A DNA stretch of 64,000 nt, from IMG/VR virus record IMGVR_UViG_3300012983_000035, positions 1 to 64,000 of that record; one strand, 5' to 3'. Shown here piece by piece: positions 1 to 61,787 of this stretch (position 1 is the first letter of the stretch; the number at the start of each line of letters is the position of its first letter). The stretch is from a virus (taxonomy: Duplodnaviria; Caudoviricetes). The translations under genes and the position numbers were made by a program. The notes below the pieces were generated by a model, which saw only the letters and a program-made list of their open reading frames with translations, had not been told where the DNA came from and did no database searches.

Positions 1-123
1 AGCCTATACAAACGTTGGAACAAGCTATACTACAACCTTTACCACAATCTCCAGAACATGAACCTTTACATCCAGCACCTATATAACAACTAGAACCACA
101 TGAGTTAGAAGAGATGATAAAAA
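1..123 (-). other. Cys-rich start-less cassette A (runs off the left window edge)
   Basis: Minus strand reads IISSNSCGSSCYIGAGCKGSCSGDCGKGCSIACSNVCIG...; 91-123 is the exact reverse complement of 5620-5652 (33 nt); lies directly after terminator 125-152. Confidence 0.8.
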
Positions 124-124
124 G

Positions 125-152
125 AATCAGGGAGGAATAAACCTCCCTGATT
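125..152 (-). terminator. Intrinsic terminator between the 165..668 gene and cassette A
   Basis: aatcagggagg-aataaa-cctccctgatt hairpin, followed by a U-run on the minus strand. Confidence 0.8.
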
Positions 153-164
153 TATATAATCATA

Positions 165-668
165 CTACCATTTTGTACCTTTCATTTGTAATCCACCTAT
201 TCGTTTAGCTTTACAAGTTTTATTATCTTTAGTGTACCAGATAAAATAATCTTTATAACTATACGAACTAGTTGCAAACGTTCCTATTTCTTGCACATTT
301 GTTACTACACATACGTCTATACCTTCTACCTTAACCCATTTAACAGAATTAAACATATCAGATTCTTTCATCTGTTTTCCACCAAATGTTTCTTTAAAAG
401 CAGTCCAAAATGATCTTCTTACAGTTTTAATAGTATCACTATTTAAAATAGTCGCTCCGCTGTTTTTAATAGAATTGGCAACTTTTATTAACTTTTGTTT
501 GAATTTATCGGAAGAAAGATAGTCAGTTTGATTTTTATATTTTAAACAAGAAGCATATGCTGCCATATTTTCTTCACTCTTTACAGGATCTACATTCTCT
601 ACACTACATACAATATTTCCATTAGGATCTTTAATAGTAATAGTATTACTCATATAATTATACTCCAT
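165..668 (-). CDS. Hypothetical protein
   Basis: 167-aa ORF followed by a terminator; no recognised motif. Confidence 0.7.
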   Translation of the reverse strand: MEYNYMSNTITIKDPNGNIVCSVENVDPVKSEENMAAYASCLKYKNQTDYLSSDKFKQKLIKVANSIKNSGATILNSDTIKTVRRSFWTAFKETFGGKQMKESDMFNSVKWVKVEGIDVCVVTNVQEIGTFATSSYSYKDYFIWYTKDNKTCKAKRIGGLQMKGTKW

Positions 669-746
669 TTGATACGGTAATATAATATAATATAAATATA
701 ATCGCCCCCCCCCCCGTATCCGGAGGGAGATACGATTAGTTTAATT

Positions 747-3700
747 TTATTCTATAGTTTTCAAAAACTCATCAGCCAATCGTTTAGGATACTCTGCGAT
801 AAGTTTTTGTAAATACCCGGTATGCCAAATTGATGTAACCATACGGTTATCAATAGATATCAACGAGAATACAACATCTATATCTTTAAATTTATAATCT
901 GTAACGCGTTTTGCCATAACTTCATCATCTACTACTTGCGTAATAACGGATTTCAACGATGAGTTAACTGTGATTTTATCTCCACCACGTTTATTGGCAT
1001 CATGTTTAATGTAATATTCTATTAATACTCCACCATCTTTTGGCATCATAGAACCATTTATACTATTTCCAGAACCAGTAGGAACAGAAACCTCAAGTTC
1101 TTTTCGTTTAGCAGAAGGAATACCTGTAGCTTTTTCTTCAAACTTAATCTGTTTCTCTAATTCTTTTTTATATTGCTCAACGAATATTCTTAAAGATTCA
1201 GATAATTCTTGTGGGTCACATGTCCAATAAACTTTCATATCAGTTATATGACCTGTATAATTAGCTTCGCCTTTGTGACGTGTCAATTTATTTAATACAG
1301 TATCGTCTGCTGTACCGAGCAATTCAAGAAGACTCATATCGGCTTCTATATCTTTTTGATCTTCATAAAGAACAAGAGGATCACCATATCTAACAAAATC
1401 ATTAACCTTTACAGTTTTAACCAAGTTAGATCTAGCACCAAGAACAATTTGTTTTCGTTTAATAACAGAGTGAGCAAGTTTTTCAGATAGCGATTTAGAG
1501 ATACAAGAAGAGTCTTCCTCTGTCATCTCACCTTCAAGTACAACTACTCTAGACATTGTACCTTGGGTAAAAGCCAATTGTCCCATATGTTTCTTAAAGA
1601 AATCTTTGTTATATGTGACAATATCTCCTTTCTTAACTCTATCACCAACTTTTACATTAGCTGACAAATTGTTTGGTAAGAAGAAATCAGAGTTTCTTAC
1701 AAATCTATCACCATAATCGATTCTATCAGAAGTACCATCGTCATATTTAATTACGATAAATTTATTTACTTCATCCACACCAGCAACTACACCGCTTTTC
1801 TTAGCCTTATAACCGAAATCATCTCCAATTCTAGAAAGAACAGTTTTTTCAAAACCTGTTCCAACTATAGGGAAATCAAAATTATTAGCAGGAATAACAT
1901 GTTTAGTTTGTGAAGAAGTGAATCCAATACGTTTAGGATCATCTTTCGTAATATATGGAATAGCAGCTTCTTCAGCTGTCATAAGAACACCAGATGGTAA
2001 ACTTTGAATCTCTTTATCTGTTTCTGGACAATCTAAGAATCCACGAGTAGAAATTATTCTTGGGTTCAATGTTAATTGTCTAACAATACCTACTGTACTA
2101 TTTTCTGGATTTGATATACCAACTATACCTATCGCAGATTTAGTTTGACCACGTCTGTTCAATTTAAACGCTCTATCAGAGTTAACACCTTGAGGTCCTT
2201 TAAAGGTAATCGCTGATTGCGATCTTATTTCATTAAGAGGATTAGTTGTATCATAATTCTCAAGAACAAGAGATTTATTAAGCTTCTTAACAATATCGTC
2301 TTCAGGTATAGAGAACGAGAATCTTTGTTTTCCTTTCTGTTTATAATCTCTATAAGCAGTAGAAATAGCACTATATAAATATGCATTTAAAATTTCATAA
2401 TCTCTGATACGATAAGATCTAATATCATTAGGTGGAAGATAACTATTATCTGACAATAAACTGTTTGCATATAAGAATACTTCTAGAAACTCAGTTGGTT
2501 GTCCTAGTTCTCTTAATACTTCTACAGTTATAGGAGTCAAGAATAATTCTCTAAATGCGGTCCAACCTTTATATATTGCTCGTCCACCGAATTTATTATA
2601 AAGATAATCCAAATATACACCAATGTCATCAAGTTCAGCAAACTCGATATTATCAACGTCCATATACGCTATACCATTGAACAATAAAGCATTTTCAATA
2701 GGATATTGATTATAATATAAGATTTTATCCTTAAATCTTACCATAGCATAATCTTGGATATTTTTATCTTCTGGGAATTTATCTGTTTTTTCAAGAATCA
2801 AATAATCAACTTTACTAGCTTCGAGAAGTTTAGTGAAAGTAAATAATGATGATAAGAAAATAACGAGAGGAACTTCTTTACTCTGTAATTCAATAAGAGT
2901 ATGCATCTTTCGTTTAGGAACAGTAACAGAATTCATGAATTTATCAAAATCATCAAAGATATTATAATCTTTAATATATTTCAATATTTTTCCAGCCACA
3001 GAATCGGATGAATTAATAGCATCAACTTCTATAACTTCGTGTGTTCCAACTATTCCTATAGGAACCATATTGTTCTTGAACTCATAAGGAATCTTCAACA
3101 ATTTAATCTCATTTCTTATTTCCTGTTGATTCATATAAAAAACAACATTTGGTTTACGAGATTTTAATTCTATCTTATGAACAATCTTAGCAATATTGTC
3201 GTATTCAATAGTAGTAACAAATGCACTGTTAACGGCACTGTTATCACCTCTAACGACAGATATTTCTTTAAACTTTTCTGGTTCGCTCAATACAGCAGTA
3301 ATTATTTTAGATAGAGCAGATGTGTTTCTATTTAGCGAAGCACCTTTTCTAAAAATATGTGTCTTGTTATAATCAGATGATAAATATACTTCATCAGGAG
3401 ACGTTTTAGTAATAGGTTTAGAAATCCATTGTTTCTTCAAAACCTTTTTATTACCATTCAAATACATGAATCCATCACTATCAACTTTAGGGAATTTAAA
3501 TTTGATGGTATGTTTACGTTTATCTTCTCCCTCAAGATTAAAAGTATACAATTCCATATCATTGAATTGGTCTGAAATATCTTGTTTCTCAAAACCAACA
3601 ATATTCATAGGAATACTCTTATCTTTTGAAAAAGATTTTACAACATTTATCATATCTTTAGCCATAGTCTTATTTACATATGATTTTGTCATATCTTTCA

Positions 3701-5486
3701 ATAGACTATAATTAAAGCTATCATCTACTGTATCAAAATTTGTTTTAGTAACATCTATCTGCATAGCAGAAGTATCATTTAAGATTTCCTCAAATGTTCT
3801 ATCGTCATCAAACTTAACAGATTTATATTTATCTCTTAAAGCATCCAATCTAGCTTGTTGCTTAGGATTAAGTTTATCTTTAGGAGAATCTTGTTTTACT
3901 TGTTCAATTATTTTTTGTTTAATAAATTCTCCATTATTAGAATTCATTTCATTGATGAACTCTCTTGTATCATTTATTTCTTTATCAGCATCATTCAATT
4001 CATCTGAATAATCATCTAAACTTTCAAGATTAACGTCATCCATATTATCAAACGATAAATCTTCAGACACATCTTCTTCAGAAGAATCTGTATCATTATT
4101 AAAAGCTTTCAAATTTGATAAATCTGATTTCTTATTTGCATTATATTGAATAGAAAGTATTTTATCTAAACTTGATTTATCTTTATCAAGATTATTTGTA
4201 CTAACAGTATCTTTTGAAATAGAAACATTCTTTTCAGTTTGTGTATCAGATTCTGAAACGCTATTTTTAACAGCTTCGTCGAAATTATTATTTATAGAAA
4301 TATTAGAATCCACAGTTTCTTCAACTTTATCATCAGACACATTATCAGAGAAACTATTATCAACTTCTTGTACATCTATTTCTGAATTATTTAGACCTAT
4401 TATAGCTTTCATAGAAGCTCTAATTAATCTAAACATAGTGTCAAATTTAAATCCTTTTTCTTTAAATTCAATAGGATCTATATAGAAACCATGTGTTTCA
4501 TTGTGAATCAAAAAGATAAAGTTAGATGCATTTTTTATTTTTTCAGATAAAACACGTTTAACTATTGAGTCACTAAAAGGATTGTTATCCAACATATCAA
4601 CTATAAATTTCACTATACCTAAAGCTATACTGTCATCAACGTCTTTACGAATAGAATTAGGAATCATATTGGCTTTAGGATCAATATATTGTGAAGCAAC
4701 TCTCATATTTTTAGTACTAATAGGAATACTTATAATTACACTATCAAACATCTTAGATAAATCAGGAGTTGTGGTGGTATAGTTTTTATACAAAGTAAGT
4801 AATTCTTTATTTGTACCATAATATGATTGATAAATCATTTGTAATATTAATTCAGGCGAAGTTGGTAAAACATTCGGTCTAATTAACATTTCCTTTGTTG
4901 GATAACTAAGCTCAAATATATCTGAGAAATCAAAAACAGTATTTTTATTATTCTTAATATAGAAAGAAGCAATATTATTTTGTAATTTTGGTAAATTACG
5001 TTTAATAGTATTAACTAATTCAGGTAAATCTGTTATATGTGTTATTGTTTTACTTCCAGGTATTAATTCATTTTTATACCTGAATTTCTTTTGTCCAACA
5101 TAATTGAACATCATTCGTTTATATAACTCTTCACCAAAACAAAGTTTAACTTCATTTGATACACTGTCCCTATCAGTTACAATAGGAATAAATGCTAATC
5201 CTCTAAATTTCTTTAACAAAAGACCAGATTTATTGAATGATTGAGAAGATGAACGAAGTTTAAATAATCTACCCATACGAACTGTTGTTGGTAGAACCGG
5301 TGAATACGCTTCAGTTGAAATGGTAGGATATATCTCAGACTCAAAACAAGATTCAAAACCTTTTGTTTTTTTCTCAGAAATATATTGATTAGAAAATAAA
5401 TCTAAATCAACTACGCTTTCATTTTCATATATATCATTTGAAAAATCTAAATTATTCATAAGATTCTCCTCATTTTCAGTAGTCAT
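747..5486 (-). CDS. Multisubunit RNA polymerase beta-like subunit, probably virion RNAP, with long N-terminal extension
   Basis: Beta motifs GFMYLNG, AITFKGPQG, NPENSTVGIVRQL, DDPKRIGFTSSQTKH, EDSSCIS, GGDKIT; 1579 aa. Virion assignment is inferred from size and the presence of a second, split beta set. Confidence 0.85.
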   Translation of the reverse strand: MTTENEENLMNNLDFSNDIYENESVVDLDLFSNQYISEKKTKGFESCFESEIYPTISTEAYSPVLPTTVRMGRLFKLRSSSQSFNKSGLLLKKFRGLAFIPIVTDRDSVSNEVKLCFGEELYKRMMFNYVGQKKFRYKNELIPGSKTITHITDLPELVNTIKRNLPKLQNNIASFYIKNNKNTVFDFSDIFELSYPTKEMLIRPNVLPTSPELILQMIYQSYYGTNKELLTLYKNYTTTTPDLSKMFDSVIISIPISTKNMRVASQYIDPKANMIPNSIRKDVDDSIALGIVKFIVDMLDNNPFSDSIVKRVLSEKIKNASNFIFLIHNETHGFYIDPIEFKEKGFKFDTMFRLIRASMKAIIGLNNSEIDVQEVDNSFSDNVSDDKVEETVDSNISINNNFDEAVKNSVSESDTQTEKNVSISKDTVSTNNLDKDKSSLDKILSIQYNANKKSDLSNLKAFNNDTDSSEEDVSEDLSFDNMDDVNLESLDDYSDELNDADKEINDTREFINEMNSNNGEFIKQKIIEQVKQDSPKDKLNPKQQARLDALRDKYKSVKFDDDRTFEEILNDTSAMQIDVTKTNFDTVDDSFNYSLLKDMTKSYVNKTMAKDMINVVKSFSKDKSIPMNIVGFEKQDISDQFNDMELYTFNLEGEDKRKHTIKFKFPKVDSDGFMYLNGNKKVLKKQWISKPITKTSPDEVYLSSDYNKTHIFRKGASLNRNTSALSKIITAVLSEPEKFKEISVVRGDNSAVNSAFVTTIEYDNIAKIVHKIELKSRKPNVVFYMNQQEIRNEIKLLKIPYEFKNNMVPIGIVGTHEVIEVDAINSSDSVAGKILKYIKDYNIFDDFDKFMNSVTVPKRKMHTLIELQSKEVPLVIFLSSLFTFTKLLEASKVDYLILEKTDKFPEDKNIQDYAMVRFKDKILYYNQYPIENALLFNGIAYMDVDNIEFAELDDIGVYLDYLYNKFGGRAIYKGWTAFRELFLTPITVEVLRELGQPTEFLEVFLYANSLLSDNSYLPPNDIRSYRIRDYEILNAYLYSAISTAYRDYKQKGKQRFSFSIPEDDIVKKLNKSLVLENYDTTNPLNEIRSQSAITFKGPQGVNSDRAFKLNRRGQTKSAIGIVGISNPENSTVGIVRQLTLNPRIISTRGFLDCPETDKEIQSLPSGVLMTAEEAAIPYITKDDPKRIGFTSSQTKHVIPANNFDFPIVGTGFEKTVLSRIGDDFGYKAKKSGVVAGVDEVNKFIVIKYDDGTSDRIDYGDRFVRNSDFFLPNNLSANVKVGDRVKKGDIVTYNKDFFKKHMGQLAFTQGTMSRVVVLEGEMTEEDSSCISKSLSEKLAHSVIKRKQIVLGARSNLVKTVKVNDFVRYGDPLVLYEDQKDIEADMSLLELLGTADDTVLNKLTRHKGEANYTGHITDMKVYWTCDPQELSESLRIFVEQYKKELEKQIKFEEKATGIPSAKRKELEVSVPTGSGNSINGSMMPKDGGVLIEYYIKHDANKRGGDKITVNSSLKSVITQVVDDEVMAKRVTDYKFKDIDVVFSLISIDNRMVTSIWHTGYLQKLIAEYPKRLADEFLKTIE

Positions 5487-5591: not shown

Positions 5592-5624
5592 ATAACTAGG
5601 CATTTAAAGCCTAGTTATATTTTT
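5592..5624 (+). terminator. Intrinsic terminator directly upstream of cassette B
   Basis: ataactaggc-atttaaa-gcctagttat followed by attttt. Confidence 0.75.
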
Positions 5625-5909
5625 ATCATCTCTTCTAACTCATGTGGTTCTACTTGTTATAATTCATGTGCCGAAGATTGTGAAATATATTGTGGTAAAA
5701 AAGGTGGTTGTGGAGCCGGTGCTTGTACTGACGGATGTGGCGGAGGTATAAATAGTTGTGGTGCATGGAGCAACGGTTGCGATTGTTATGGTACTTGTTA
5801 TGATGGATGTTATGACTCTTGTGGACCAACAAATAGCAGCTGTTCTACTTATTGTACATCATCTTCTTCTTGTTCGGCCACAGGATTTACACAAAATAAG
5901 AAAATTTAA
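5620..5909 (+). other. Cys-rich start-less cassette B
   Basis: Open frame from 5631: SSNSCGSTCYNSCAEDCEIYCGKKGGCGAGACTDGCGGGINSCGAWSNGCDCYGTCYDGCYDSCGPTNSSCSTYCTSSSSCSATG, stop at 5907-5909. 17 Cys; no ATG/GTG/TTG start after the in-frame TAG at 5589; conserved arms at 5620-5652 and 5859-5884. Confidence 0.85.
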
Positions 5910-6900
5910 GAAAAAATGACAATTTCAAGCTTTTAAAAATTATTTTTTCTAAAAAATAAGGCAAAAATCGAAAAGTGAACTTTAGACCCACTTAGATTAA
6001 ACTCAGAGACACTTTAAGGGTAGTTAGAAGAGAGTCCAAAAAAATCGAAAGCTCAAAATGAATTTCGATTATATATTACAATAATGTATTATTATTGTAA
6101 TTTTATTGTAATATTTTATAAATTATTGTTGTTTATTGTAATACTTATAATTATTGTTTTTATAACTTATTATTTGAATTTCATACAATATTTACAATTT
6201 ACATTCGTTATCTCTTTACACAACTTAAATTTGTACTCTTAATTAATCTATTTCTATTTACATTTATAATAAGTATTACAATTCAATTTCAATTGATTCT
6301 CCTAAAAAGAATCAAAATTGAAATTGAGAATTATAGAATATATTAATTACTTGTTTACAAATATAATGTAAATGTTATTGTAATATATTGTATATTGTTC
6401 TGGGGTATTTTTCTTTTTTCTAATACCTAAAAATTGACTAAAAATCATGAATACAAGAAAAAAGAGTAAAAAAATGAAAATGCAAGTTTAAATATAGTTA
6501 CATTTAAATAAATGGTACTTATAATGTACTTAAAAAGAGGTCTTAAAAAACAAAAATCTCAAAACGATTTTCGATTATATATTATTAATAAAAAAAATCT
6601 TAATTCTTTTATTAATCTTTTTATCATTCTTTTCTTTAATCCTTTTTATCCTTTAAATCCTTTTTCTTAATCTCTTTTTTAATTCTTTATTAATAATATT
6701 TGATTATTTGGAGGTATTTTTAAAGGGTTAATATATTATATTATAATTATATTTATAATATATTTTATATAATATTTGTTTTATAATACCAAAATAACCT
6801 CTAAAATTTCAGGTTTGGATTTTCCTGAAATTTTTGGATGGAGGTTATTTTGAATGTATTTAAATTCCTTTTTCAGAAATATATTATAATTATGATAATC
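5910..6900. other. ~1 kb extremely AT-rich non-coding region with direct and inverted repeats (candidate origin/control region)
   Basis: No ORF of 60 aa or more; 27-nt direct repeat 6052-6078/6558-6584 (25/27 identical); inverted repeats ~6286-6326 and ~6791-6851; pyrimidine-rich degenerate repeats 6598-6690. Confidence 0.55.
6880..6894 (+). promoter_or_regulatory. Phage promoter motif TATATT-N7-TG
   Basis: Same spacing at 6072, 11216, 15371, 19876, 20625, 23857, 36348, 57519, 58301 and 62077, all intergenic. Confidence 0.7.
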
Positions 6901-6985
6901 TTGTATAGATAAAGTTAATTAATTAAGATAATCGATATATTAAATAGGAGGTTTGTAATATGAACAGAAATAAAAGGATTGAAAA

Positions 6986-7189
6986 ATGGGAATAGAAGAA
7001 GAGACTAACGTAAATAAAGCTATATTACTAATACCGATAATAGGAGGATTAATATACGGTATAATTAAGCTTAAAAATAAGAAATATAATACATGTGAAA
7101 TATCTTTATTTGGTAAGAAAATTAAATTAGGTAAAGATATGACATGGAAAGAATTTAAAGAATGGAAAAAACAATATAAATATTATTGA
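6986..7189 (+). CDS. Small membrane protein
   Basis: 67 aa with one hydrophobic segment (AILLIPIIGGLIYGII). Confidence 0.55.
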   Translation: MGIEEETNVNKAILLIPIIGGLIYGIIKLKNKKYNTCEISLFGKKIKLGKDMTWKEFKEWKKQYKYY

Positions 7190-7195
7190 TAAACA

Positions 7196-7227
7196 AAAGA
7201 TACGTAGGATAAAACCTACGTATCTTT
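7196..7227. terminator. Bidirectional terminator between convergent genes
   Basis: aaagatacgtagg-ataaaa-cctacgtatcttt with A/T flanks. Confidence 0.8.
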
Positions 7228-11301: not shown

Positions 11302-12171
11302 GTGTCAAAAAATCGAAAGAATAATGTATTTATTTTTGAGGGTCCGGATGTTTCAGGAAAGACAACACAAGTTAGCAAAGTTAAACAGGTGTTAGAATCC
11401 CATGGGTTAAAAGTAGGTATGTTAAAATATCCACATGTTGGAGAAGCTCACGCAAATGAAGTTTATAGATTACTGAACGCTTCTAGAGCAGAATCCACAG
11501 ATATAAACAATATTGTAAAAATGGCATTTTACAATATGATTAATAAATACAATACATTTGACCAATTATTGGAATTATCTAATACATGTGATGTTGTCTT
11601 GATTGATAGATATATCTTATCGTCGTTGGTTTACGATTATGCTAGAATAGCTGATCTTGTAAATCTTCATGACAATAAAAATAAAGATCTTGATACATCA
11701 TTTTGTGAAAAAATAACAACAGTATCTAGGTTATCAAATAAATATGTAAATATATTGGTAGATATGCTTTTACTAAAAACACAAAATAAGAAATTTCCGT
11801 TTAAACACGTGATATTCAGAAAAAGTAAAGCAATATCTGTTTTATCGGATTCAAGTAGAGAATATACTTCTACTGATAAAAACAAGTATTTACAGAAAGT
11901 AGTAGAATCTTGTTATAATACGATATATATTCCTGAAGATAAAAAAGATTTACTTTGGTTGAGGAACAATTGTGAAGAATTTGAATTAGCTATATTAGCA
12001 GTAAATAATTTCTTTGAAAATTGTTGCGATAAAGGTAAAGGAATAATAATCGATACTGATAAGATTATAAACTATGAAAAAGATAATCTTTCTAAAGAAG
12101 GTTTAATAACTTCTTTAGAATCTGTTACATCAGAAATTACTAATTATATATTGAAGGAGATTAAAAGATGA
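11302..12171 (+). CDS. tmk: Thymidylate (dNMP) kinase
   Basis: FIFEGPDVSGKTT P-loop and LIDRY motif; GTG start after GGAGG. Confidence 0.85.
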   Translation: MSKNRKNNVFIFEGPDVSGKTTQVSKVKQVLESHGLKVGMLKYPHVGEAHANEVYRLLNASRAESTDINNIVKMAFYNMINKYNTFDQLLELSNTCDVVLIDRYILSSLVYDYARIADLVNLHDNKNKDLDTSFCEKITTVSRLSNKYVNILVDMLLLKTQNKKFPFKHVIFRKSKAISVLSDSSREYTSTDKNKYLQKVVESCYNTIYIPEDKKDLLWLRNNCEEFELAILAVNNFFENCCDKGKGIIIDTDKIINYEKDNLSKEGLITSLESVTSEITNYILKEIKR

Positions 12172-22466: not shown

Positions 22467-22469
22467 TTG

Positions 22470-22504
22470 ATAAGAGGAGCTTAAATTGCTCCTCTTATTT
22501 TTTT
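22470..22504 (+). terminator. DNA polymerase terminator directly upstream of cassette C
   Basis: ataagaggagc-ttaaatt-gctcctcttat plus T-run. Confidence 0.8.
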
Positions 22505-22514
22505 ATTATATCTA

Positions 22515-22788
22515 TTCTAACTCATGTGGTTCTACTTCTAGGTTAGATGGACTAACATCATGTAACACGAGCTCAACATGTAATTTTGGATGTGGAAATA
22601 ATGGATGTCACTCGCGGTGTAGTCACAGTAACTATAGTGAGTCTGGGTGCAATCCGTGCGCCGATTCATGCCTGAATAGTTGTGGTGGTGGTGGAGGAGC
22701 CAGTTGTTCAACTATTTGTTATAATAGTTGCGATTCAACGTCATTTGTAGCATCTGGGTGTTCATCTTCTTCTTGTTCGGCAACAGGC
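22515..22788 (+). other. Cys-rich cassette C without a credible start
   Basis: SNSCGSTSRLDGLTSCNTSSTCNFGCGNNGCHSRCSHSNYSESGCNPCADSCLNSCGGGGGASCSTICYNSCDSTSFVASGCSSSSCSATG (15 Cys); 5' arm ttctaactcatgtggttctact identical to B; 3' arm 22762-22787 matches 5859-5884 at 25/26; only candidate start is a TTG inside the terminator hairpin. Confidence 0.85.
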
Positions 22789-22847
22789 CGCAATATATTT
22801 TATTATATTATATTAAACATCTCGTTGAAACTGTTAGGAGTTATTAT

Positions 22848-35900: not shown

Positions 35901-36284
35901 CTTATGCAGAAGCTTCCTAGTCCAGAAGAAATGTTCACAAAATCAGGATTGGTTGGAAGTTCAGGTGATGGATTCAATATTAATAGCGTAATGAGCAACC
36001 CAGCTCTTATGCATAAATATATGAATATTATGCAAAACGGAACACCTGAAGCTAAGAATTATTTCATAAACAACGTCATGTATCCTAATCAAGGAGCAAA
36101 TATGATGAATGGAATGTTCAATGGCATGAACGGTGGTATGATGCCTAATATGGGAATGGGAATGCCAATGATGGGTAACCAGATGGGTATGATGAATCCT
36201 ATGATGGGCGGAATGAATATGGGTGTGGGTCAAATGCAAATGCCAGGTATGGGTATGATGCCTGGGATGAACTTTGGTCGATAA
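32988..36284 (+). CDS. Large protein with Zn ribbons, acidic linker and Met/Gly-rich low-complexity C-terminus
   Basis: CNRC..CSNC and CGIC..CPHC; long D/E-rich stretch; C-terminus MMPNMGMGMPMMGNQMGMMNPMMGGMNMG. Confidence 0.85.
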   Translation: MAKFKWDNDTISGNQITEVLISQYGFTQPVSVNLDNMTRRISYKNSLIPMFCNRCGTSFSMSPKMVCEAFDTRGYVCSNCGNLTDEEIRSKKKQEMAEGTVDFAKERGIDIEEIEAEQERKEQEEREHEEQLALSVDDIISANEEIDEEPTVSTESSTPIEVEEEAIESESEDDDYSKYMATDDDDNVSLEDMIGSTDDIDIEADDFDDSIDVDVEDNEEDLDVDVETIVSDIEEDPDPNDEESTGQSVTEEPVVTIEPDKTPEPIKAEIVNDKPEIEPEETEEPEDSFIVNGERLTPDDIREQCIATEKEVKKILGYWPYQRKIVPENDSIRMHCGICGKPFYIDSIPSLATKVISLTKEYCEARGIKYKPQLNNKVSKLSYCPHCLKSISSKGYNEYLRETVELICKRVNLTIINPEKYWFAGFLDQITVAANGVEKTVTIREFLEKYDCISDARTLDEFKPRGTAVKSTTDEKTEKPKYTITNKVDESKKQTETRGFKFVSNNPGPFNGTSVDSNAKLEEEAELQNSSVKENSVFHINQTIKDEHSTFAKLNDKLNPFARAKSLESTFQKSPFASFISDLSDETNVECTLTINSRTFEIPIIDFENGFRIICVDIDNNSMTKIPYNVVSKCIGFPYRDENGKPIKDFKTLVLYSDSVERRRSATMDALIKFINPKVLPYKDKKIVMEDTIFTQYTDYNQYLKEFDSQYSTFPGGKPKTGQLGIVATWTDDNSAKADFRSIMRFQMMVQEGNKASLNQLNNDYEQYMVASIKYIERLNKTTGRVSYVITDYVEIGSAIIADGFLQCVRALLREYTKKYPTMSNILPHIILEIDPNVYPSPSLRSYIEKGTLCLMDEVYKAVTDGNSNINKLGKDQHLKYTYVRRAEYRSATKDSDWCRQDMRMFGAGTLAATMSEELKTAGIASGISDDGTRLAFISNMGFTKNNQLEVKEYFVDQNVVQQLLMDGKTALMQKLPSPEEMFTKSGLVGSSGDGFNINSVMSNPALMHKYMNIMQNGTPEAKNYFINNVMYPNQGANMMNGMFNGMNGGMMPNMGMGMPMMGNQMGMMNPMMGGMNMGVGQMQMPGMGMMPGMNFGR

Positions 36285-37386
36285 AAACAATACCGGAATA
36301 TAATTCAATTCCGGTGCATTTTAAATTCACAAATTAAAATAAAGAAATATATTATTAATTTGATAAACTATGTTAAGGAGAAATAATAACATGAGTAACG
36401 AAGCAACAACAGCAGAAAACCAGAAAAAGGCTGAAGAACAACAGCGCTATTTTATGCAGATGCAAAAGAACATGATGAGACAGAATTATGCTCAGCAGAT
36501 TATGGGAGCATTTAATACTATCTCTGCTTACAAAGTTCTTAAAACAGCATCTCAGTACGGAATGATCTTCCCTGTAGATTACAACTCAAAAATGGTTCTT
36601 TCACAGAAACTTTATCAGGCACTTGTTTTGAATAACACAAGCACAGATGAAGATGAATGGAAAACTTTGGCTAATTCTCTCATGATGGCTCAACAACAGA
36701 CAATGAGAAACATGTTGTTTAGCCCACAGATGAATAACGGTATGATGCCTAATATGGGAATGGGAATGCCAATGATGGGTAACCAGATGGGTATGATGAA
36801 TCCTATGATGGGCGGAATGAATATGGGTACGGGTCAAATGCCAGGTATGGGTATGATGAATCCTATGATGGGAATGGGAATGCCAATGATGGGTAACCAG
36901 ATGGGTATGATGGGAATGAACCAACCACAGGCTGCACAAGTTGGAAACGATAAACAGAACAACGTTAACAATTTGAAGAGCTATATCCAGGCAAACCTTT
37001 TTAATACAGATCCAGTAGTATTGATTTCAATTCTCATGAACAATGGTCTTGAATTCGATGACAGTGATCTTGATAGAATTCTCGGACAGACTCTAGCAAA
37101 TTCAGCTTATTACATGGATGACAATTCTATTGTGTATTTCTATCAGATCGTCGTATCTCTATACAACGTAAGTATTCAACAGGGAAAAGATGGAAATGCT
37201 GCTCCTAATCAGCATAACATGATGGGAATGGGAATGCCAATGATGGGTAACCAGATGGGTATGATGAATCCTATGATGGGCGGAATGAATATGGGTGTGG
37301 GTCAAATGCAAATGCCAGGTATGGGTATGATGAATCCTATGATGGGAATGGGAATGCCAATGATGGGTAACCAGATGGGTATGATG
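36150..37386 (+). repeat. Five identical 45-nt units encoding MGMGMPMMGNQMGMM, shared by two genes
   Basis: atgggaatgggaatgccaatgatgggtaaccagatgggtatgatg at 36150, 36754, 36868, 37222 and 37342. Confidence 0.9.
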
Positions 37387-37455
37387 GGAATGAACCATAT
37401 GCAAATGCCAGGTATGGGAAACCCAAATCCTAATGGATTAAATGCTCTATATTAA
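36391..37455 (+). CDS. Met/Gly/Gln/Asn-rich low-complexity protein
   Basis: Two M/G repeat blocks alternating with helical-looking segments; AAGGAG RBS; TATATT-N7-TG at 36348. Confidence 0.85.
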   Translation: MSNEATTAENQKKAEEQQRYFMQMQKNMMRQNYAQQIMGAFNTISAYKVLKTASQYGMIFPVDYNSKMVLSQKLYQALVLNNTSTDEDEWKTLANSLMMAQQQTMRNMLFSPQMNNGMMPNMGMGMPMMGNQMGMMNPMMGGMNMGTGQMPGMGMMNPMMGMGMPMMGNQMGMMGMNQPQAAQVGNDKQNNVNNLKSYIQANLFNTDPVVLISILMNNGLEFDDSDLDRILGQTLANSAYYMDDNSIVYFYQIVVSLYNVSIQQGKDGNAAPNQHNMMGMGMPMMGNQMGMMNPMMGGMNMGVGQMQMPGMGMMNPMMGMGMPMMGNQMGMMGMNHMQMPGMGNPNPNGLNALY

Positions 37456-51925: not shown

Positions 51926-54900
51926 ATGATTGTTATAAAACGAGATGGTAGTAAATCTGAGTTTGATAAAGAAAAGATATTTACTGCTATATCTAAAGCG
52001 AACGATTCGATTACAAAGAAAGCAAACAAGATCACTAAAAAAGAAATAGAAGAAATAACGGATGAGATTGCTAAAGCTTGTGAAGATATTAAATCTGATA
52101 AAAATCGAACTGTAGAAGCAATCCAAGATCTTGTTGAAGAAAAGCTAATTGAACGACAAAAGGTTAAATTAGCTAGAAATTATATTGCTTATAGGGAAGA
52201 AAGAACAAGGATTCGTAATAGAAGTAATACCCTATATAAAGACGTATTTTCTAAAGCATTTGCTAAAAATATTGAAAATCAAAATGCAAATGTTGATGAA
52301 GCATCTTTTGGTGGAAGAAAAGGTGAAGCTGCTAACGTAATGCTTAAACGTTTAGCTTTAGATGAAGTTATATCTGAGAAATATAGAAAGAATCATGAAG
52401 AAAATCGTATTTATATTCATGATCTAGATTCTTATCTTCTTGGCATGAGCAATTGTTTAAGCGTTCCATTTGATAAGATTCTTGCTAATGGTTTTAATAC
52501 TAGACAGACAGATGTTAGACCTGCTAGCAGTATAAGTACAGCTTTCCAACTTGTAGCGGTAATCTTCCAATTACAATCTTTACAACAATTCGGTAAACCA
52601 AAGAGTATCTGCCGAATCAAAACCTTGTGAACTCACAAATGTGAGGTGTTTCTTTATGTAAATAGAGAAGCTAACGGTCAACTAAATCGAAAGATTAAGG
52701 TGGTAAGAGAGCCTAAGTCCTATTTATAGGATACGGTAATACCGTGTTAAGAAGATATACTATTATTCTCTTAATGTATCGACTATCGAAAGCATAGCTA
52801 AGAAGAAATATCTTAGTGAAGAAGCGAGTAGAGTACACGATTAGATGAAACTCCTACGTGGAAGTGCAAGGATGTATATGTGTTTATATACATAAGATAT
52901 AGTCAGGCTTTATAGAAATATAAAGGATAGAACTGGGATGTTCTGCTACACACCTTGACACAACTATGGTTCCGTATGTAAGAAAAAGTTTTTTCAAACA
53001 TTACATGACTGTTATGGATATTGTTCCATTTGTTAAAGAATCGTGGTTGGATAAAAGCGTTAATAAAAACTCATCAAAAGATATATCTATTGATGATGAA
53101 ATATATAAAGGTAAAAAATGGTTTAACTTTATCAAACGATATGTTTGGAATAAAGCAATGAAATTGACTGTAAGGGAATTGAACCAAGCTATTGAGGGAA
53201 TGTATCATAACCTTAATACCTTACAGTCGCGTTCTGGTGCGTTTAATCGCCTAGTAGCATAGAGATATGTTACCGTAAACGGGCAAAATCGGTGAAGTCT
53301 AAGTGATTTTATATCATATGATAATACCGAGGTAACTTGAGATATTGCGAATAGGATCTTAAGTACCGTAGAGCGTAGGAGATGAATAAATATAATTCTC
53401 CCAAGAGTGTCCGTCACCAGATATTATAGATATCTGTGAGTTGGAATGATTACCAACAATACCTAACGTTAAACGAGGGTGAAAATGTACGCCGAGCTTA
53501 TAGGAAACTATAAGAACTAGAGGATAAAAAGCCTTTAGGATAACAAATCTGAATCAGTTGCCTTTTACTTCAATTAACTATGGTCTCTGTACTTTAACAG
53601 AAGGACGCATGGTTACAAAAGCTCTCTTAGAGGGCAGTTTAAAAGGTGTTGGTAAATTCCATAAAACACCTATCTTCCCTTGTGGAATATTCCAATATAA
53701 ACAAGGGGTAAATGATAAACCTGGTACTCCTAATTATGATTTAAAGAAACTTGCTATCAAATCTACTGTTAGACGTTTGTATCCCAATTACGCAAACTGT
53801 GATTGGTCTGTAAACGATTCTGCTATTGATTATGATAGAGTTACAAAAAGAGAAATCATTAGGAATATTAGAGATAATGATAAAGATACATATGATAAAC
53901 TTGTAAAATTCTTTACTGAACATTACGACATTTGTAAATATCTTCGTCTTGAATTAGTTGATAGTGGAACTGAAATTGGAATAATCGATGAAGTTCAACC
54001 TGATGAAGACATGGGAACCATAAAACCTGTGGCCTAGAACAGTGATGTTCTATGGAAAAACTTGCCTAAACATGGGAACGCTTGTGTTATTTACGTTCGA
54101 ACACAAGTCAATCGTGTGTTAAATTTGATATCGTATTAAAATAAAATGTCTCCTTGACGTATTTGTAGAAGGGGATGTATATTATGAAAGAAGAGATATG
54201 GAAATCTGTTAAGAACCATGAAGATTACTATGAAGTTAGTTCAGATGGGCGAGTTCGTAGTAAAATTAGTGGTAAGATCGTTGTTGGAGATGTAAATGCG
54301 GTCGGTTATAAACGAGTCACTTTATATGTGCCGAAAAAAGAAAGAGTGTTTGTTCATAGATTAGTAGCATCGCATTTTGTAGAAGGTGAAAATGATGGGT
54401 TAGTTGTGAATCACGTTGATGGTTGTAAAACTAATAATTCTGCTGAAAACCTTGAATGGGTTACTAGATCTGAAAACGATAAACACGCGTTTCGTCTTGG
54501 TTTAAGACACCCTAATCCACCAGAATATAAACATAAATACATTTTATATTCAAGAGATACAGGTGAGGTCTTAACACATTATACAACATCCATAGATTCA
54601 GCAACAGATTTGAATGTGACTAGATCTAGAGTTTATAACAGAGCCAATAAAGATCAGAAATTTGGACCTAATGGTAATTTAGGTTTGATATTAGAAACTG
54701 ATAAGACTATTGATGATCTTATAAATTCTGGAATTCTTAAATCTGAAACTGAACCGGTTACTCCATACGATATTAATAAAAACTAAACGACTATCGAAAG
54801 CATAGCTAAGAAGAAATATCTTAATGAAGAAGCGAGTAGAGTAGAATCAAGTGATTCGAAACGGCAAGGGTCTCACAGAGGTTAATACAATGTGAGATCG

Positions 54901-56381
54901 TGATATAGTCTAACCTGGATAGTGATATCCAGAATAGTTACAATTTGTGACTTAACGTAAGTGTAACGAGCTTGCGGAATAACTCTGAAGAAGGGGTTGT
55001 AGAACGTATAATGGAGCAGATGTTAATTTTAGTAAATCTTTCGAATACAATTTGGAATTGGCAGCTAGTGGAGAAACAGATTTATCAAAATATGACGATT
55101 GTGTTTCAGCTGCGTTGAAAGATGGGCGAGGAAATATTGCCCCTAATACAATAATTTTACCTACCGCAGCAATGGAATGTAAAACAGGTAAAATCAAGTT
55201 ATCGGACGATCTTATCGAAAACTTTATGTTATATCTTGATCAATTGATTCATGAAGCAAAAGATGAATTGATTGAACGATTTGAATATATTTGTTCACAA
55301 TCAGAAGCAGCAGCAAAGTTTATGTATGAGAATAGAACTTTCGTAGGATATATTCCTAGTGAGGGTATAAGATCTGCATTACGACATGGGACTTTGGTTA
55401 TTGGACAAATTGGTTTAGCTGAGACTTTAAATATTCTTATTGGAAAAGATCACACTACTTCTGAAGGAATGGAATTAGCTAAACGAATTGAGAACCTTTA
55501 TAAGAAAAGATGTGCTCAATTTAAAACAGAGTATAGCTTAAACTTTGGTGTGTATTATACGCCTAAAATCTGTGGGCGTCATATGAGTAATCATATGTAT
55601 AAAACTACGTTAAACGGGCTGAATGTAATAAATTGGTAAGAAAGGCTAAACTTTAATAAAAGCAAGCTAACCCCGTAGGATAGAACAATATGAGTTCTGT
55701 TCTCTAACGACTATCGAAAGCATAGCTAAGAAGAAATATCTTAGTGAAGAAGCGAGTAGAGTAGAATCAAGTGATTCGAAACGCGTAGCTCCAATAGATT
55801 AGTAACAGATTTATTGGATGATTATATAGTCTAATCCTCTTTTAAATATCGGGAAACCGAAGGTATAATAAAAGGCAGAAAATCTATGCTATACATCTAT
55901 GACCAAGTTTAAGAAAGCTTATGGTGAGATTGAAAATGTAAGCGATAGAAAATACTTTACAAATAGTATGCATGTTCCAGTATGGAAACAAATGTCACCT
56001 TTTAATAAGATTGACATTGAATCTGAATTAACAGGTTATTCTTCTGGTGGATGTATAACTTATGTAGAGGTTGATGAAAACGCTGCTAGAAACGAAACAG
56101 TTGTTGAACAAATTATCGATTACGAAATGAAAGAAAAGGATATCCCATATGCCGCTGTGAATTTGCCTAATAAGACTTGTAGAAAATGTGGTTATTCAGG
56201 TAAAATGGCAGGTGTAAATGGTGATGTTTGTCCTACATGTGGATCTAGTGAGATCGATGAATTAGGACGTATCACAGGTTATTTATTTGGAACGGTTAAC
56301 CAAGCTAACGCAGGTAAACAAGATGAATTTAAAGATCGTGTAGATCATACTGATTCATTGGTTGGATGGGCTAGACATTAA
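51926..56381 (+). CDS. nrdD: Anaerobic (class III) ribonucleotide reductase with ATP-cone; 5 exons: 51926-52594, 52936-53238, 53552-54021, 54994-55564, 55875-56381 (839 aa spliced)
   Basis: VIKRDG ATP-cone; splicing restores QQFG|GCSATHLD, SRSG|NQLPF, GTM|GCRT (ATG split as AT|G) and YTP|AENLC; Zn site CRKC..CPTC; glycyl-radical RITGYL; exon sum 2520 nt is in frame. Confidence 0.93.
52595..52935 (+). mobile_element. Group I intron 1 in nrdD (no ORF)
   Basis: 5' exon ends ttcggT and pairs with IGS gccgaa; P7 gactat/atagtc; terminal G. Confidence 0.88.
53239..53551 (+). mobile_element. Group I intron 2 in nrdD (no ORF)
   Basis: 5' exon ends ctggT; group-I-like core (aaaatcggtgaa, gataataccgagg); terminal G; removal restores SG|NQLPF. 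Confidence 0.85.
54022..54993 (+). mobile_element. Group I intron 3 in nrdD, carrying an HNH homing endonuclease
   Basis: Exon end ccaT pairs with IGS gtgg; P7 gactat/atagtc; terminal G; splits the Met codon of MGCRT. Confidence 0.88.
54175..54786 (+). CDS. Intron-encoded NUMOD4-HNH homing endonuclease
   Basis: EIWKSV..YEVSSDGRVRS (NUMOD4); VHRLVA...VNHVDGCKTNNSAENLEW..EN.KHA (HNH). Confidence 0.92.
   Translation: MYIMKEEIWKSVKNHEDYYEVSSDGRVRSKISGKIVVGDVNAVGYKRVTLYVPKKERVFVHRLVASHFVEGENDGLVVNHVDGCKTNNSAENLEWVTRSENDKHAFRLGLRHPNPPEYKHKYILYSRDTGEVLTHYTTSIDSATDLNVTRSRVYNRANKDQKFGPNGNLGLILETDKTIDDLINSGILKSETEPVTPYDINKN
55565..55874 (+). mobile_element. Group I intron 4 in nrdD (no ORF)
   Basis: Exon end acgccT pairs with IGS gggcgt; P7 gactat/atagtc; terminal G. 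Confidence 0.88.
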
Positions 56382-60227: not shown

Positions 60228-61787
60228 ATGGTTAATGGAACTATAGGAAGTAAATTGATGAATCGCCTTTTTAAAATGGGTGATCCTTTGGGAGGAGATA
60301 ATGAGTTTATCCAATTCCCAGCTATACCGACAAAATATACTGTGTATAATGTATATTCTGGAACAATGGTAGAAGGCGTAAATGGAATGCCAGTTTTAAA
60401 TGGTGGTCTGTTTGCACGATTATGCAATATTATCGGTGAATCTGGGTGTGGTAAAACTTCTGTTTTGATTGGTAAAGTTACATCATCTGTTGATTATATT
60501 TGGAACAGATTTGGTCCAGGATATTCAGAAATATTTTACTGTGATCCTGAGAATAATACTCCTCCAAACCGTTTTATGAGTTTGGCTAGATGGTCTCCAG
60601 CAGATTTTATGAATAAATGTAATTATTCTAATAAACCTATTTCGTTGGTAGAACTAGCTAATATGATTTTAAAGATATATAATATTAAAACTACATGTAA
60701 GAAAGATTATCTTTTGCCATCTGGATTACGTGATGTTGATGGTAGAGAAATCATGTTCTTGGCACCAACTTACATCTGTATAGACTCAGTTGCACAGGTA
60801 AATCCAAATGGTGTAGAAGATCTATTACAGTTGGATAAGGCAGGGGAAGTTAAAGATAACGATAAACTTGGTTCCAATATGGAAGCTGCATTAGATGCTA
60901 AAGCTTGGACTATCTTCGTTAGAAAAATTAAACCTTACCTTGATGGTGCAAATATTGGTCTTTATTGTATCAATCATAAAACAAAAGAAATGAAAGTAGG
61001 AATGTTTGATAAAGAAACTCGATATCTTCCGTTCTTAGGTATGGGTGAGAAGATTAAAGGTGGAAAAGAATTTATTTATCAGTCATTCAATATCTTTGAT
61101 CTATCGTCTGGTGAAAAACTTAATGATAGAAACCCAATATATGGTCCAGATGTAAACGGATTCGTAGCAAATGCTTCTTTTGTTAAAAATAAATATAATA
61201 TCGAAGGAGCAAAATTCCCTATGGTATTTGACATGTCAAGAGGCTATATGCCAGAATTATCTGACATGGAATATTTGTGGCAGAAGAAGTTCGGAATCCA
61301 AGGTTCAGTTAAACTAGCTTTGGACGTTTTACCTGAGATCCAGTTTACTAGACGTACACTTCTTGAAACTATTGAGGAATATCCTCAGTTGGCAAGAGCA
61401 TTAGCATTTACTGCTAAATATCGAGCAACCCAAGAAATGATTTATGGTAATAAAAACATTTTACCATTGACTGAGCTTGGAACAAATGTTCCGCTTGAAC
61501 AGCGTTTAGCTATGATTTATGCTTATACTGAATCATATTCGCCAAAAGACGATGTTGGAGAAATGTATACAAATTTCTCACAACTGGCAAATGAAAATAA
61601 ACATTATTTCTGTTTCAATTTGCATGATGGATATTATAACAACAATATTATTTCTGAACCAAACGTTAAGGTCATCAGTAATGGATACACACCTATTATT
61701 GGTAAAGGTGTTACACCTTTTGATAATGATGCTGAAAAAGTAGTTGGTTCAAAATATGTTATAGCTAATGAATATATAACTGCGTAA
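60228..61787 (+). CDS. RecA/UvsX-like recombinase
   Basis: Walker A GESGCGKT, CDPE, Walker B ICIDSVA, INH, KGGKE, KNK. Confidence 0.85.
   Translation: MVNGTIGSKLMNRLFKMGDPLGGDNEFIQFPAIPTKYTVYNVYSGTMVEGVNGMPVLNGGLFARLCNIIGESGCGKTSVLIGKVTSSVDYIWNRFGPGYSEIFYCDPENNTPPNRFMSLARWSPADFMNKCNYSNKPISLVELANMILKIYNIKTTCKKDYLLPSGLRDVDGREIMFLAPTYICIDSVAQVNPNGVEDLLQLDKAGEVKDNDKLGSNMEAALDAKAWTIFVRKIKPYLDGANIGLYCINHKTKEMKVGMFDKETRYLPFLGMGEKIKGGKEFIYQSFNIFDLSSGEKLNDRNPIYGPDVNGFVANASFVKNKYNIEGAKFPMVFDMSRGYMPELSDMEYLWQKKFGIQGSVKLALDVLPEIQFTRRTLLETIEEYPQLARALAFTAKYRATQEMIYGNKNILPLTELGTNVPLEQRLAMIYAYTESYSPKDDVGEMYTNFSQLANENKHYFCFNLHDGYYNNNIISEPNVKVISNGYTPIIGKGVTPFDNDAEKVVGSKYVIANEYITA

What the first reader, a model, noticed from the sequence alone, without database searches (positions are those of the whole stretch)
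5620..5909. Family of silent, terminator-insulated Cys-rich cassettes with conserved homology arms: candidate cassette-swapping diversification system
Seen: three dispersed ~0.26-kb elements (1-123 minus, truncated; 5620-5909; 22515-22788). They share a 5' arm: 33 nt are identical between A and B, and the core ttctaactcatgtggttcta (SNSCGS) is in all three. B and C share a 3' arm tcatcttcttcttgttcggc(c/a)acagg (SSSSCSATG, 25/26 identical). The interiors are unrelated in sequence yet all stop-free, in frame with the arms, and CxxxC/Gly/Ser-rich (17 and 15 Cys in B and C). None has an RBS plus start codon, and each begins within ~15 nt after an intrinsic terminator. Inference: these are unexpressed donor modules kept in frame for recombination into an expressed locus elsewhere in the genome, for example a Cys-rich receptor-binding fibre tip or radical-SAM-modified protein. 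This would be analogous to silent-cassette gene conversion in Borrelia vls or Treponema tprK. The phage RecA-like protein and SbcD are candidate catalysts. I know of no description of this architecture in phages.
Basis: partly seen in the sequence, partly recalled or inferred. Interest (0 to 1): 0.92.

Follow-up and report, generated by a model that had tools for sequence, protein, structure and literature searches.

The report
Swappable cysteine-rich cassette library, jumbo phage
A giant gut phage keeps, scattered over its genome, a library of start-less, cysteine-rich protein pieces between two fixed short DNA ends; different strains hold different pieces in the same slot, which points to a spare-parts system for varying an enzyme-modified phage protein, although the gene that receives the pieces has not been seen.

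Summary
The elements are real. The window belongs to a fragment (38% complete) of a phiKZ/AR9-type jumbo phage that starts inside cassette A and ends inside a fourth cassette. In relatives I found 25 independent complete cassettes with 10 mostly unrelated interiors; 24 are in frame arm to arm. All foldable cases (26) follow a strong hairpin, and only 2 of 27 have an in-frame start with a Shine-Dalgarno-like motif. Four genomic slots keep both flanks but hold different interiors in different samples, with breakpoints at the arms, so swapping is shown. Diverged alleles are under purifying selection (dN/dS 0.2-0.3, cysteines kept), while arm codons are frozen even at silent sites. The phage family encodes a CXXX-repeat radical SAM maturase (TIGR04115-like) and a weak helper homologue. 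Best reading: silent C-terminal modules of a CXXX target protein, recombined into an expression site in the missing part of the genome. That site was not found, so the central step is inferred. The scan noted phage CXXX tail modules before, not this cassette library.

The parts
1..123 (-). Cassette A (type A), cut by the contig end; 5' arm core starts at 106
   Evidence: full form in L006, 100% identical over 669 nt
125..152 (-). Terminator-like hairpin in front of A (hairpin type also seen in L001, L013, L043)
165..668 (-). Upstream gene of slot A; shares its upstream region and first ~28 codons with otherwise different genes that also precede cassettes in relatives
5592..5618 (+). Terminator-like hairpin in front of B; the neighbouring gene (RNA polymerase beta, 747-5486) points away, so it does not end that gene
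5620..5657 (+). 5' arm of B (invariant core from 5637, encodes NSCGS)
5658..5858 (+). Variable interior of B (type B, seen only here); 17 Cys in the cassette, 9 of 16 gaps at i+4
5859..5885 (+). 3' arm of B (encodes SSSCSATG); frame stops at 5907-5909
22469..22499 (+). Terminator hairpin in front of C, after a DNA polymerase gene; hides GAGGAG and an in-frame TTG (22486)
22515..22790 (+). Cassette C: 5' arm, type-C interior (15 Cys), 3' arm at 22762-22790; the type-C interior sits in another slot in L039
60228..61787 (+). RecA-like ATPase, candidate catalyst only. (Two more parts lie beyond the window on the same record: helper-like gene G000 72945-73373 and cassette D, G000 104538-104795 minus.)
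   Evidence: Walker A motif; RecA_N clusters at 0.95-0.97; no direct PF00154 hit; helper and D:

Best explanation
The elements are a dispersed library of silent, interchangeable C-terminal modules for one cysteine-ladder (CXXX) protein. Each slot is: terminator hairpin, 5' arm (about 21 nt), variable 60-140-codon Cys/Gly/Ser interior, 3' arm (about 25 nt, often ending in a small hairpin). SHOWN: interiors are replaced between arms at fixed slots, move between slots and form mosaics; they are selected as protein; most lack a start; the family encodes a CXXX-type radical SAM maturase. INFERRED: an expression gene in the missing ~60% of the genome carries a constant N-terminal domain followed by the same two arms, probably ending SATGR-stop. 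Recombination in both arms (gene conversion or double crossover, within a genome or between co-infecting phages, perhaps by the phage RecA-like protein) loads a new module. The maturase then cross-links its cysteines. By analogy with CXXX targets in other phages' tail modules, the product is probably a virion or tail part whose variation changes host contact or recognition.
For: Slot swaps with both flanks kept: L011 type A vs L039 type C, flanks 97% and 99% identical, homology ending at the arms; three more slots hold G vs A, F vs J, and H vs I vs an I/F mosaic. 24 of 25 independent cassettes are in frame arm to arm. dN/dS is 0.20-0.27 in four diverged allele pairs (p 1e-5 to 4e-3), all Cys kept. 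Arm codons are identical in 10 of 10 types (9 of 10 for two codons), including codons rare in the interiors. An in-frame start exists in 5 of 27 cases, with a Shine-Dalgarno-like motif in 2. 94 of 173 Cys gaps are i+4 against 18 in shuffles. The TIGR04115-like maturase (E 5e-61) lies about 1.4 kb downstream of one slot. CXXX targets next to homologous maturases in SPN3US and MT835573 have a 50-105-aa N-terminal domain plus a Cys ladder, the part the cassettes lack.
Against: No expressed gene with both arms was found in the held fragment, in the neighbouring loci of relatives or in protein searches. All homologues found are stand-alone gene calls of 95-135 aa. These negatives are weak: diverged cassettes score only E 3e-4 to 0.2, mostly above the 1e-3 limit, and assemblies often break at cassettes. 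There are no reads to show switching within a population. The arms are short for RecA-type recombination. Cassette matches to TIGR04114/04117 are weak (E 0.01-0.02). The virion role rests on analogy. Three further allele pairs give weaker signals (dN/dS 0.49-0.60), and two near-identical pairs are uninformative.
Confidence: 0.62

Rival explanations
1. Same library and expression gene, but switching is by single crossovers at one arm (shufflon-like inversions or translocations of large segments, possibly by a site-specific recombinase), as in Min or Rin.
For: Single-arm junctions exist: a type-D cassette is joined at the 3' arm to the flank that follows C in the window (L038), and L043 has a new downstream flank. 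Cassettes lie on both strands. The 3' arm ends in a 7-bp hairpin (z -3.3).
Against: Four slots keep both flanks while the interior changes, which one crossover cannot do. There is no tyrosine or serine recombinase on the held fragment (fragment only). The 3' hairpin is broken in several copies.
Confidence: 0.13
2. No expression site: hairpin plus arms are PeSL-like intergenic repeats that shuffle accessory genes, and the interiors are relics of once-complete CXXX paralogues that are now decaying.
For: Cassettes are interleaved with variable accessory genes. Some copies are decayed: a stop in the 3' arm of L006, a frameshift in L013:7952, a lost 5' arm in L042.
Against: Purifying selection and 24 of 25 frames intact. 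Interiors swap while the flanking genes stay. An intact maturase gene is kept in many strains (34 cluster members).
Confidence: 0.1
3. Each cassette is its own small RiPP-like gene, translated after terminator read-through from a start hidden in the hairpin loop or from a non-standard codon, perhaps switched by poly-T slippage.
For: GAGGAG plus in-frame ATG/TTG inside the hairpin at window C and L013:8965; the T-run behind the hairpin varies in length.
Against: 22 of 27 have no in-frame standard start. The same interior type occurs with and without one. There is no conserved leader for a maturase.
Confidence: 0.08
4. Cassettes are joined to a constant 5' part at the RNA or ribosome level (trans-splicing or tmRNA-like template switching), with the arms as RNA guide or landing sites; DNA swaps are a by-product of the shared arms.
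For: It would explain selection on every cassette together with the failure to find a fused gene.
Against: A terminator directly in front and no room for a promoter between it and the arm; the 5' arm has no structure (z 0.25); I know of no precedent of this form.
Confidence: 0.07

Closest known systems
Borrelia vls silent-cassette gene conversion (PMC3474939); Treponema tprK is similar (own knowledge)
   Same: Unexpressed in-frame cassettes bounded by conserved sequence; segments move between loci; mosaics arise.
   Different: vls has 15 contiguous cassettes over 90% identical to vlsE. Here 10 or more mostly unrelated interiors share only 21-25-nt arms, are dispersed behind terminators, vary in length (60-140 codons), sit in a phage, and no expression site has been seen yet.
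Phage tail-fibre shufflons Min, Rin, Gin, Cin (PMC6109161)
   Same: Phage; start-less variable C-terminal parts, very dissimilar from each other, each behind a short repeat.
   Different: Those are contiguous, with one crossover site per part and an adjacent invertase and constant part. Here each part has two arms, slots can be tens of kb apart, both flanks survive a swap, and no invertase was found on the held fragment.
CXXX-repeat radical SAM system (NCBIfam TIGR04114/04117 targets, TIGR04115 maturase, TIGR04116 helper)
   Same: Cys at every fourth residue; maturase and helper homologues in the same phage family.
   Different: In SPN3US and MT835573 the targets are complete genes beside the maturase. 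Here only headless ladders were found, in many exchangeable versions; helper and maturase are not neighbours; the maturase carries an intein.
PeSL promoter/stem-loop cassettes of T4-type phages (PMC2839356)
   Same: Repeated intergenic elements with terminator hairpins that act as recombination points and shuffle neighbouring accessory genes.
   Different: PeSLs are non-coding, conserved over about 100 bp and carry promoters; these elements enclose a variable coding interior under protein-level selection.

Membership tests
Silent-cassette variation (vls-type) | Several in-frame cassettes without their own start signals | tested here: met
   24 of 25 in frame; 2 of 27 with start plus SD-like motif
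Silent-cassette variation (vls-type) | Conserved flanking homology at which sequence is exchanged | tested here: met
   breakpoints at arms, four slots
Silent-cassette variation (vls-type) | One expression locus carrying both arms | tested here: inconclusive
   not found; record 38% complete
Silent-cassette variation (vls-type) | Cassettes highly similar (over 90%) and contiguous | tested here: not met
   10 types, dispersed; 36-46% aligned identity to type F, much of it arms and Cys
Silent-cassette variation (vls-type) | Cassettes not transcribed; non-reciprocal transfer within a lineage | not testable with these tools
Phage shufflon (Min/Rin) | Contiguous variable parts next to constant part and invertase | tested here: not met
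   slots dispersed; neighbours are unrelated genes
Phage shufflon (Min/Rin) | Site-specific recombinase encoded | tested here: inconclusive
   none on the fragment
CXXX-repeat radical SAM system | TIGR04115 maturase | tested here: inconclusive
   best family by far, E 5e-61, 207 bits against cut-off 350, intein-split; seen in relatives, not on G000
CXXX-repeat radical SAM system | TIGR04116 helper | tested here: inconclusive
   E 0.0012, 18.9 bits against cut-off 50
CXXX-repeat radical SAM system | Target with Cys every fourth residue | tested here: met
   94 of 173 gaps i+4, shuffles mean 18, max 33; model hits only weak
CXXX-repeat radical SAM system | Maturase modifies the target | not testable with these tools
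   needs biochemistry
PeSL | Non-coding promoter plus stem-loop repeat | tested here: not met
   coding interior under selection; no promoter-like site between hairpin and arm at B
Diversity-generating retroelement | Template and variable repeat of equal length differing at adenines | tested here: not met
   interiors differ in length and are mostly unrelated; reverse transcriptase not searched

The most novel reading that the evidence does not exclude
A jumbo phage runs a genome-wide cassette-loading system in which an open library of ten or more unrelated cysteine-ladder modules, traded between strains through two ~20-nt arms by a dedicated, so far unknown recombination mechanism, is loaded into one radical-SAM-stapled virion protein that sets host recognition: antigenic-variation logic applied to a post-translationally cross-linked protein.
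Probability: 0.35. Interest if true: 0.93.

Novelty: new variant of a known kind. Interest (0 to 1): 0.8.

Why it matters
Phage diversification of contact proteins is known through retroelements and invertase shufflons. My searches of the held papers found no dispersed two-arm silent-cassette library in a phage. It would also give the first functional handle on the CXXX radical SAM system, for which those searches found no experimental study: a protein worth keeping ten spare versions of is probably under host-driven selection. It supplies one maturase with many natural substrates to assay. It also explains why these genomes break and rearrange at these points, and why gene callers miss the elements.

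Tried and rejected
Arm patterns in IMG/VR and GTDB gave nothing or chance hits only; L002 is also chance. Protein-based locus searches in viral contigs found no relatives. Whole records behind Logan/ENA loci are not held. The idea that the record is circular with A joined to D was rejected: the join is out of frame and L006 and L041 give different continuations. D as the expression site was rejected for the 98%-identical L041. Antisense coding was rejected: stops in all antisense frames. An attC-like reading of the arms was considered and dropped: the 5' arm is unstructured and no integrase was found. The AlphaFold model was useless (pLDDT 36), so no fold search was run; the Atlas gave no hit. 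N-terminal domains of other phages' CXXX targets did not match any held locus. The 2700-aa gene in L043 has no Cys ladder in the 2474 residues seen; its last ~226 residues were out of reach. Misassembly as the source of swaps is unlikely but not excluded: slot and type pairings recur in independent samples (H four times, I twice, J three times). The paper defining the CXXX families could not be fetched.

Full report
OBSERVATION. The three elements are present as described. The 20-nt core occurs three times without mismatch; shuffles give none. A and B share a 33-nt exact run. The 3' arms of B and C differ at one base, and the frames are open with 17 and 15 Cys. Each follows a strong hairpin. 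One correction: C has an in-frame TTG behind GAGGAG, buried in its terminator hairpin.

CONTEXT. The window is bases 1-64000 of a linear 104,795-nt virus record, 38% complete. Its RNA polymerase subunits are closest to those of phiR1-37 and AR9-type phages, so it is a jumbo phage. One relative's sample is labelled pig gut, and family contigs reach 301 kb. The record begins inside cassette A and ends inside a fourth cassette, D, at 104538-104795 on the minus strand. L006 completes A. L041, 98% identical, completes D and shows it behind a hairpin with no start.

THE FAMILY. From ENA, JGI and Logan contigs I collected 27 complete cassettes, 25 of them independent (two were fetched twice). They fall into 10 interior types of about 60-140 codons; 24 of 25 are in frame from arm to arm. 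One has a frameshift, and another a stop in the 3' arm. L013 holds four cassettes in 5 kb, each between ordinary genes. A hairpin of -14 kcal/mol or stronger precedes all 26 foldable cases. Of 27 true 5' arms (one row of the table is a false hit), 5 have an in-frame standard start and 2 a Shine-Dalgarno-like motif. At B and at D (L041) the upstream gene points away, so the hairpin belongs to the slot rather than ending a gene.

EXCHANGE IS SHOWN. L011 and L039 share flanks at 97% and 99%, the match stops at the arms, and the interiors are type A and type C. Three further slots behave alike: G versus A, F versus J, and H versus I versus a mosaic. The mosaic (L047) is type I for its first 35-48 nt and type F from base 44. 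Types A, C, D and F each occur in several slots. Single-arm junctions also occur: type D is joined at the 3' arm to the flank that follows C in the window. These are comparisons between samples; the rate and direction of exchange are unknown.

TWO KINDS OF CONSTRAINT. Interiors are kept as protein: four diverged allele pairs give dN/dS 0.20-0.27 with every Cys kept, three others give 0.49-0.60, and two near-identical pairs say nothing. Arms are kept as DNA: the first five codons are identical in all 10 types, and the 3' arm nearly so, using several codons that are the minority in interiors. Start-less DNA under protein selection must at times be joined to a translated 5' part; that is inference.

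WHAT THE PROTEIN IS. Cys spacing is i+4 in 94 of 173 gaps against 18 by chance. G000 encodes a weak TIGR04116 helper homologue at 72945-73373. Relatives encode an intein-split radical SAM/SPASM protein whose best family is the CXXX maturase TIGR04115 (E 5e-61, under the cut-off), about 1.4 kb downstream of the most variable slot; it is not on the held fragment. Its homologues in SPN3US and in the gut phage contig MT835573 sit beside complete targets made of a 50-105-aa N-terminal domain and a Cys ladder; in SPN3US they follow a gene annotated as virion structural protein. The cassettes look like such ladders without the head. Earlier scan notes report CXXX modules beside tail-fibre genes in many phages; I checked this only for these two records. 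Thioether cross-linking is inferred from related maturases such as PapB (second-best family) and was not tested.

THE GAP. No gene running into an arm was found on G000, in the relatives' loci or by protein search. All hits are stand-alone calls. The searches are weak for this purpose: true diverged cassettes scored E 3e-4 to 0.2, the long-protein search stopped at 1e-3 with five input sequences, and many contigs end at cassettes. A short expressed peptide of a known type is less likely, since it should have been among the hits. Several slots end SATGR-stop, which may be the natural C-terminus.

CATALYST. A RecA-like ATPase is present at 60228-61787. The SbcD candidate shows only a phosphoesterase domain. 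No tyrosine or serine recombinase is on the fragment. Nothing ties any of these to the arms.

COMPARISON. It works like vls silent cassettes (PMC3474939) and serves the purpose of the Min and Rin shufflons (PMC6109161), but fails defining features of both: cassettes are neither near-identical nor contiguous, and there is no adjacent invertase. The gene shuffling around the slots recalls PeSLs (PMC2839356), which are non-coding. Paper searches found no description of this architecture; the library lacks most subscription journals.

VERDICT. A real, exchanged library of start-less Cys-ladder modules tied to a CXXX radical SAM system. Loading into an expression gene is the likeliest purpose (0.62, or 0.75 with the shufflon variant) but remains unobserved. 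New variant of a known kind; interest 0.8.

Noticed in passing
L042:13423-15276 and P0060-P0073: The intein inside the CxxxCxxC motif of the CXXX maturase appears to begin with Asp in 13 of 13 sequences, with no Cys in its C-terminal motif region; an atypical intein that would need a non-standard splicing start.
   Followed up: partly
window 165-757 (-); L013:7035-7210, 11831-12025; L041:621-1343: A second homology-swap pattern: in the window and L013, genes share the upstream region and about 28 N-terminal codons ending in KSEE (like a head-protease cleavage motif, own knowledge) at over 90% DNA identity, then differ completely, and each precedes a cassette; a more distant copy in L041 does not.
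   Followed up: partly
L052:6016-6823 (SPN3US, NC_027402): Two Cys-ladder genes and a short third one upstream of the radical SAM genes are missing from the annotation; ACQ60_gp100 is called in the wrong frame over one of them.
   Followed up: partly
window 50645-50997: Gene-free stretch with short recurring motifs, noted earlier as a possible TIGR-like array; sequence viewed only.
   Followed up: no
window 36117-37432; L001:560-1126: Identical Met/Gly-rich repeats shared by two neighbouring genes; in L001 the second gene is shorter, with another 3' end, and lies tail to tail with a type-A cassette.
   Followed up: no
window 52778-55783: Three copies of a 78-nt repeat downstream of a truncated anaerobic ribonucleotide reductase piece, possibly introns; not examined.
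   Followed up: no
window 5910-7200: About 1.3 kb AT-rich gene-free region with short repeats directly after cassette B; possible replication origin or promoter cluster.
   Followed up: no
L043:12438-19860: A 2700-aa gene with weak Kelch-like matches follows a cassette slot in one strain only, a sign of rearrangement at the 3' arm; last ~226 residues not seen.
   Followed up: partly
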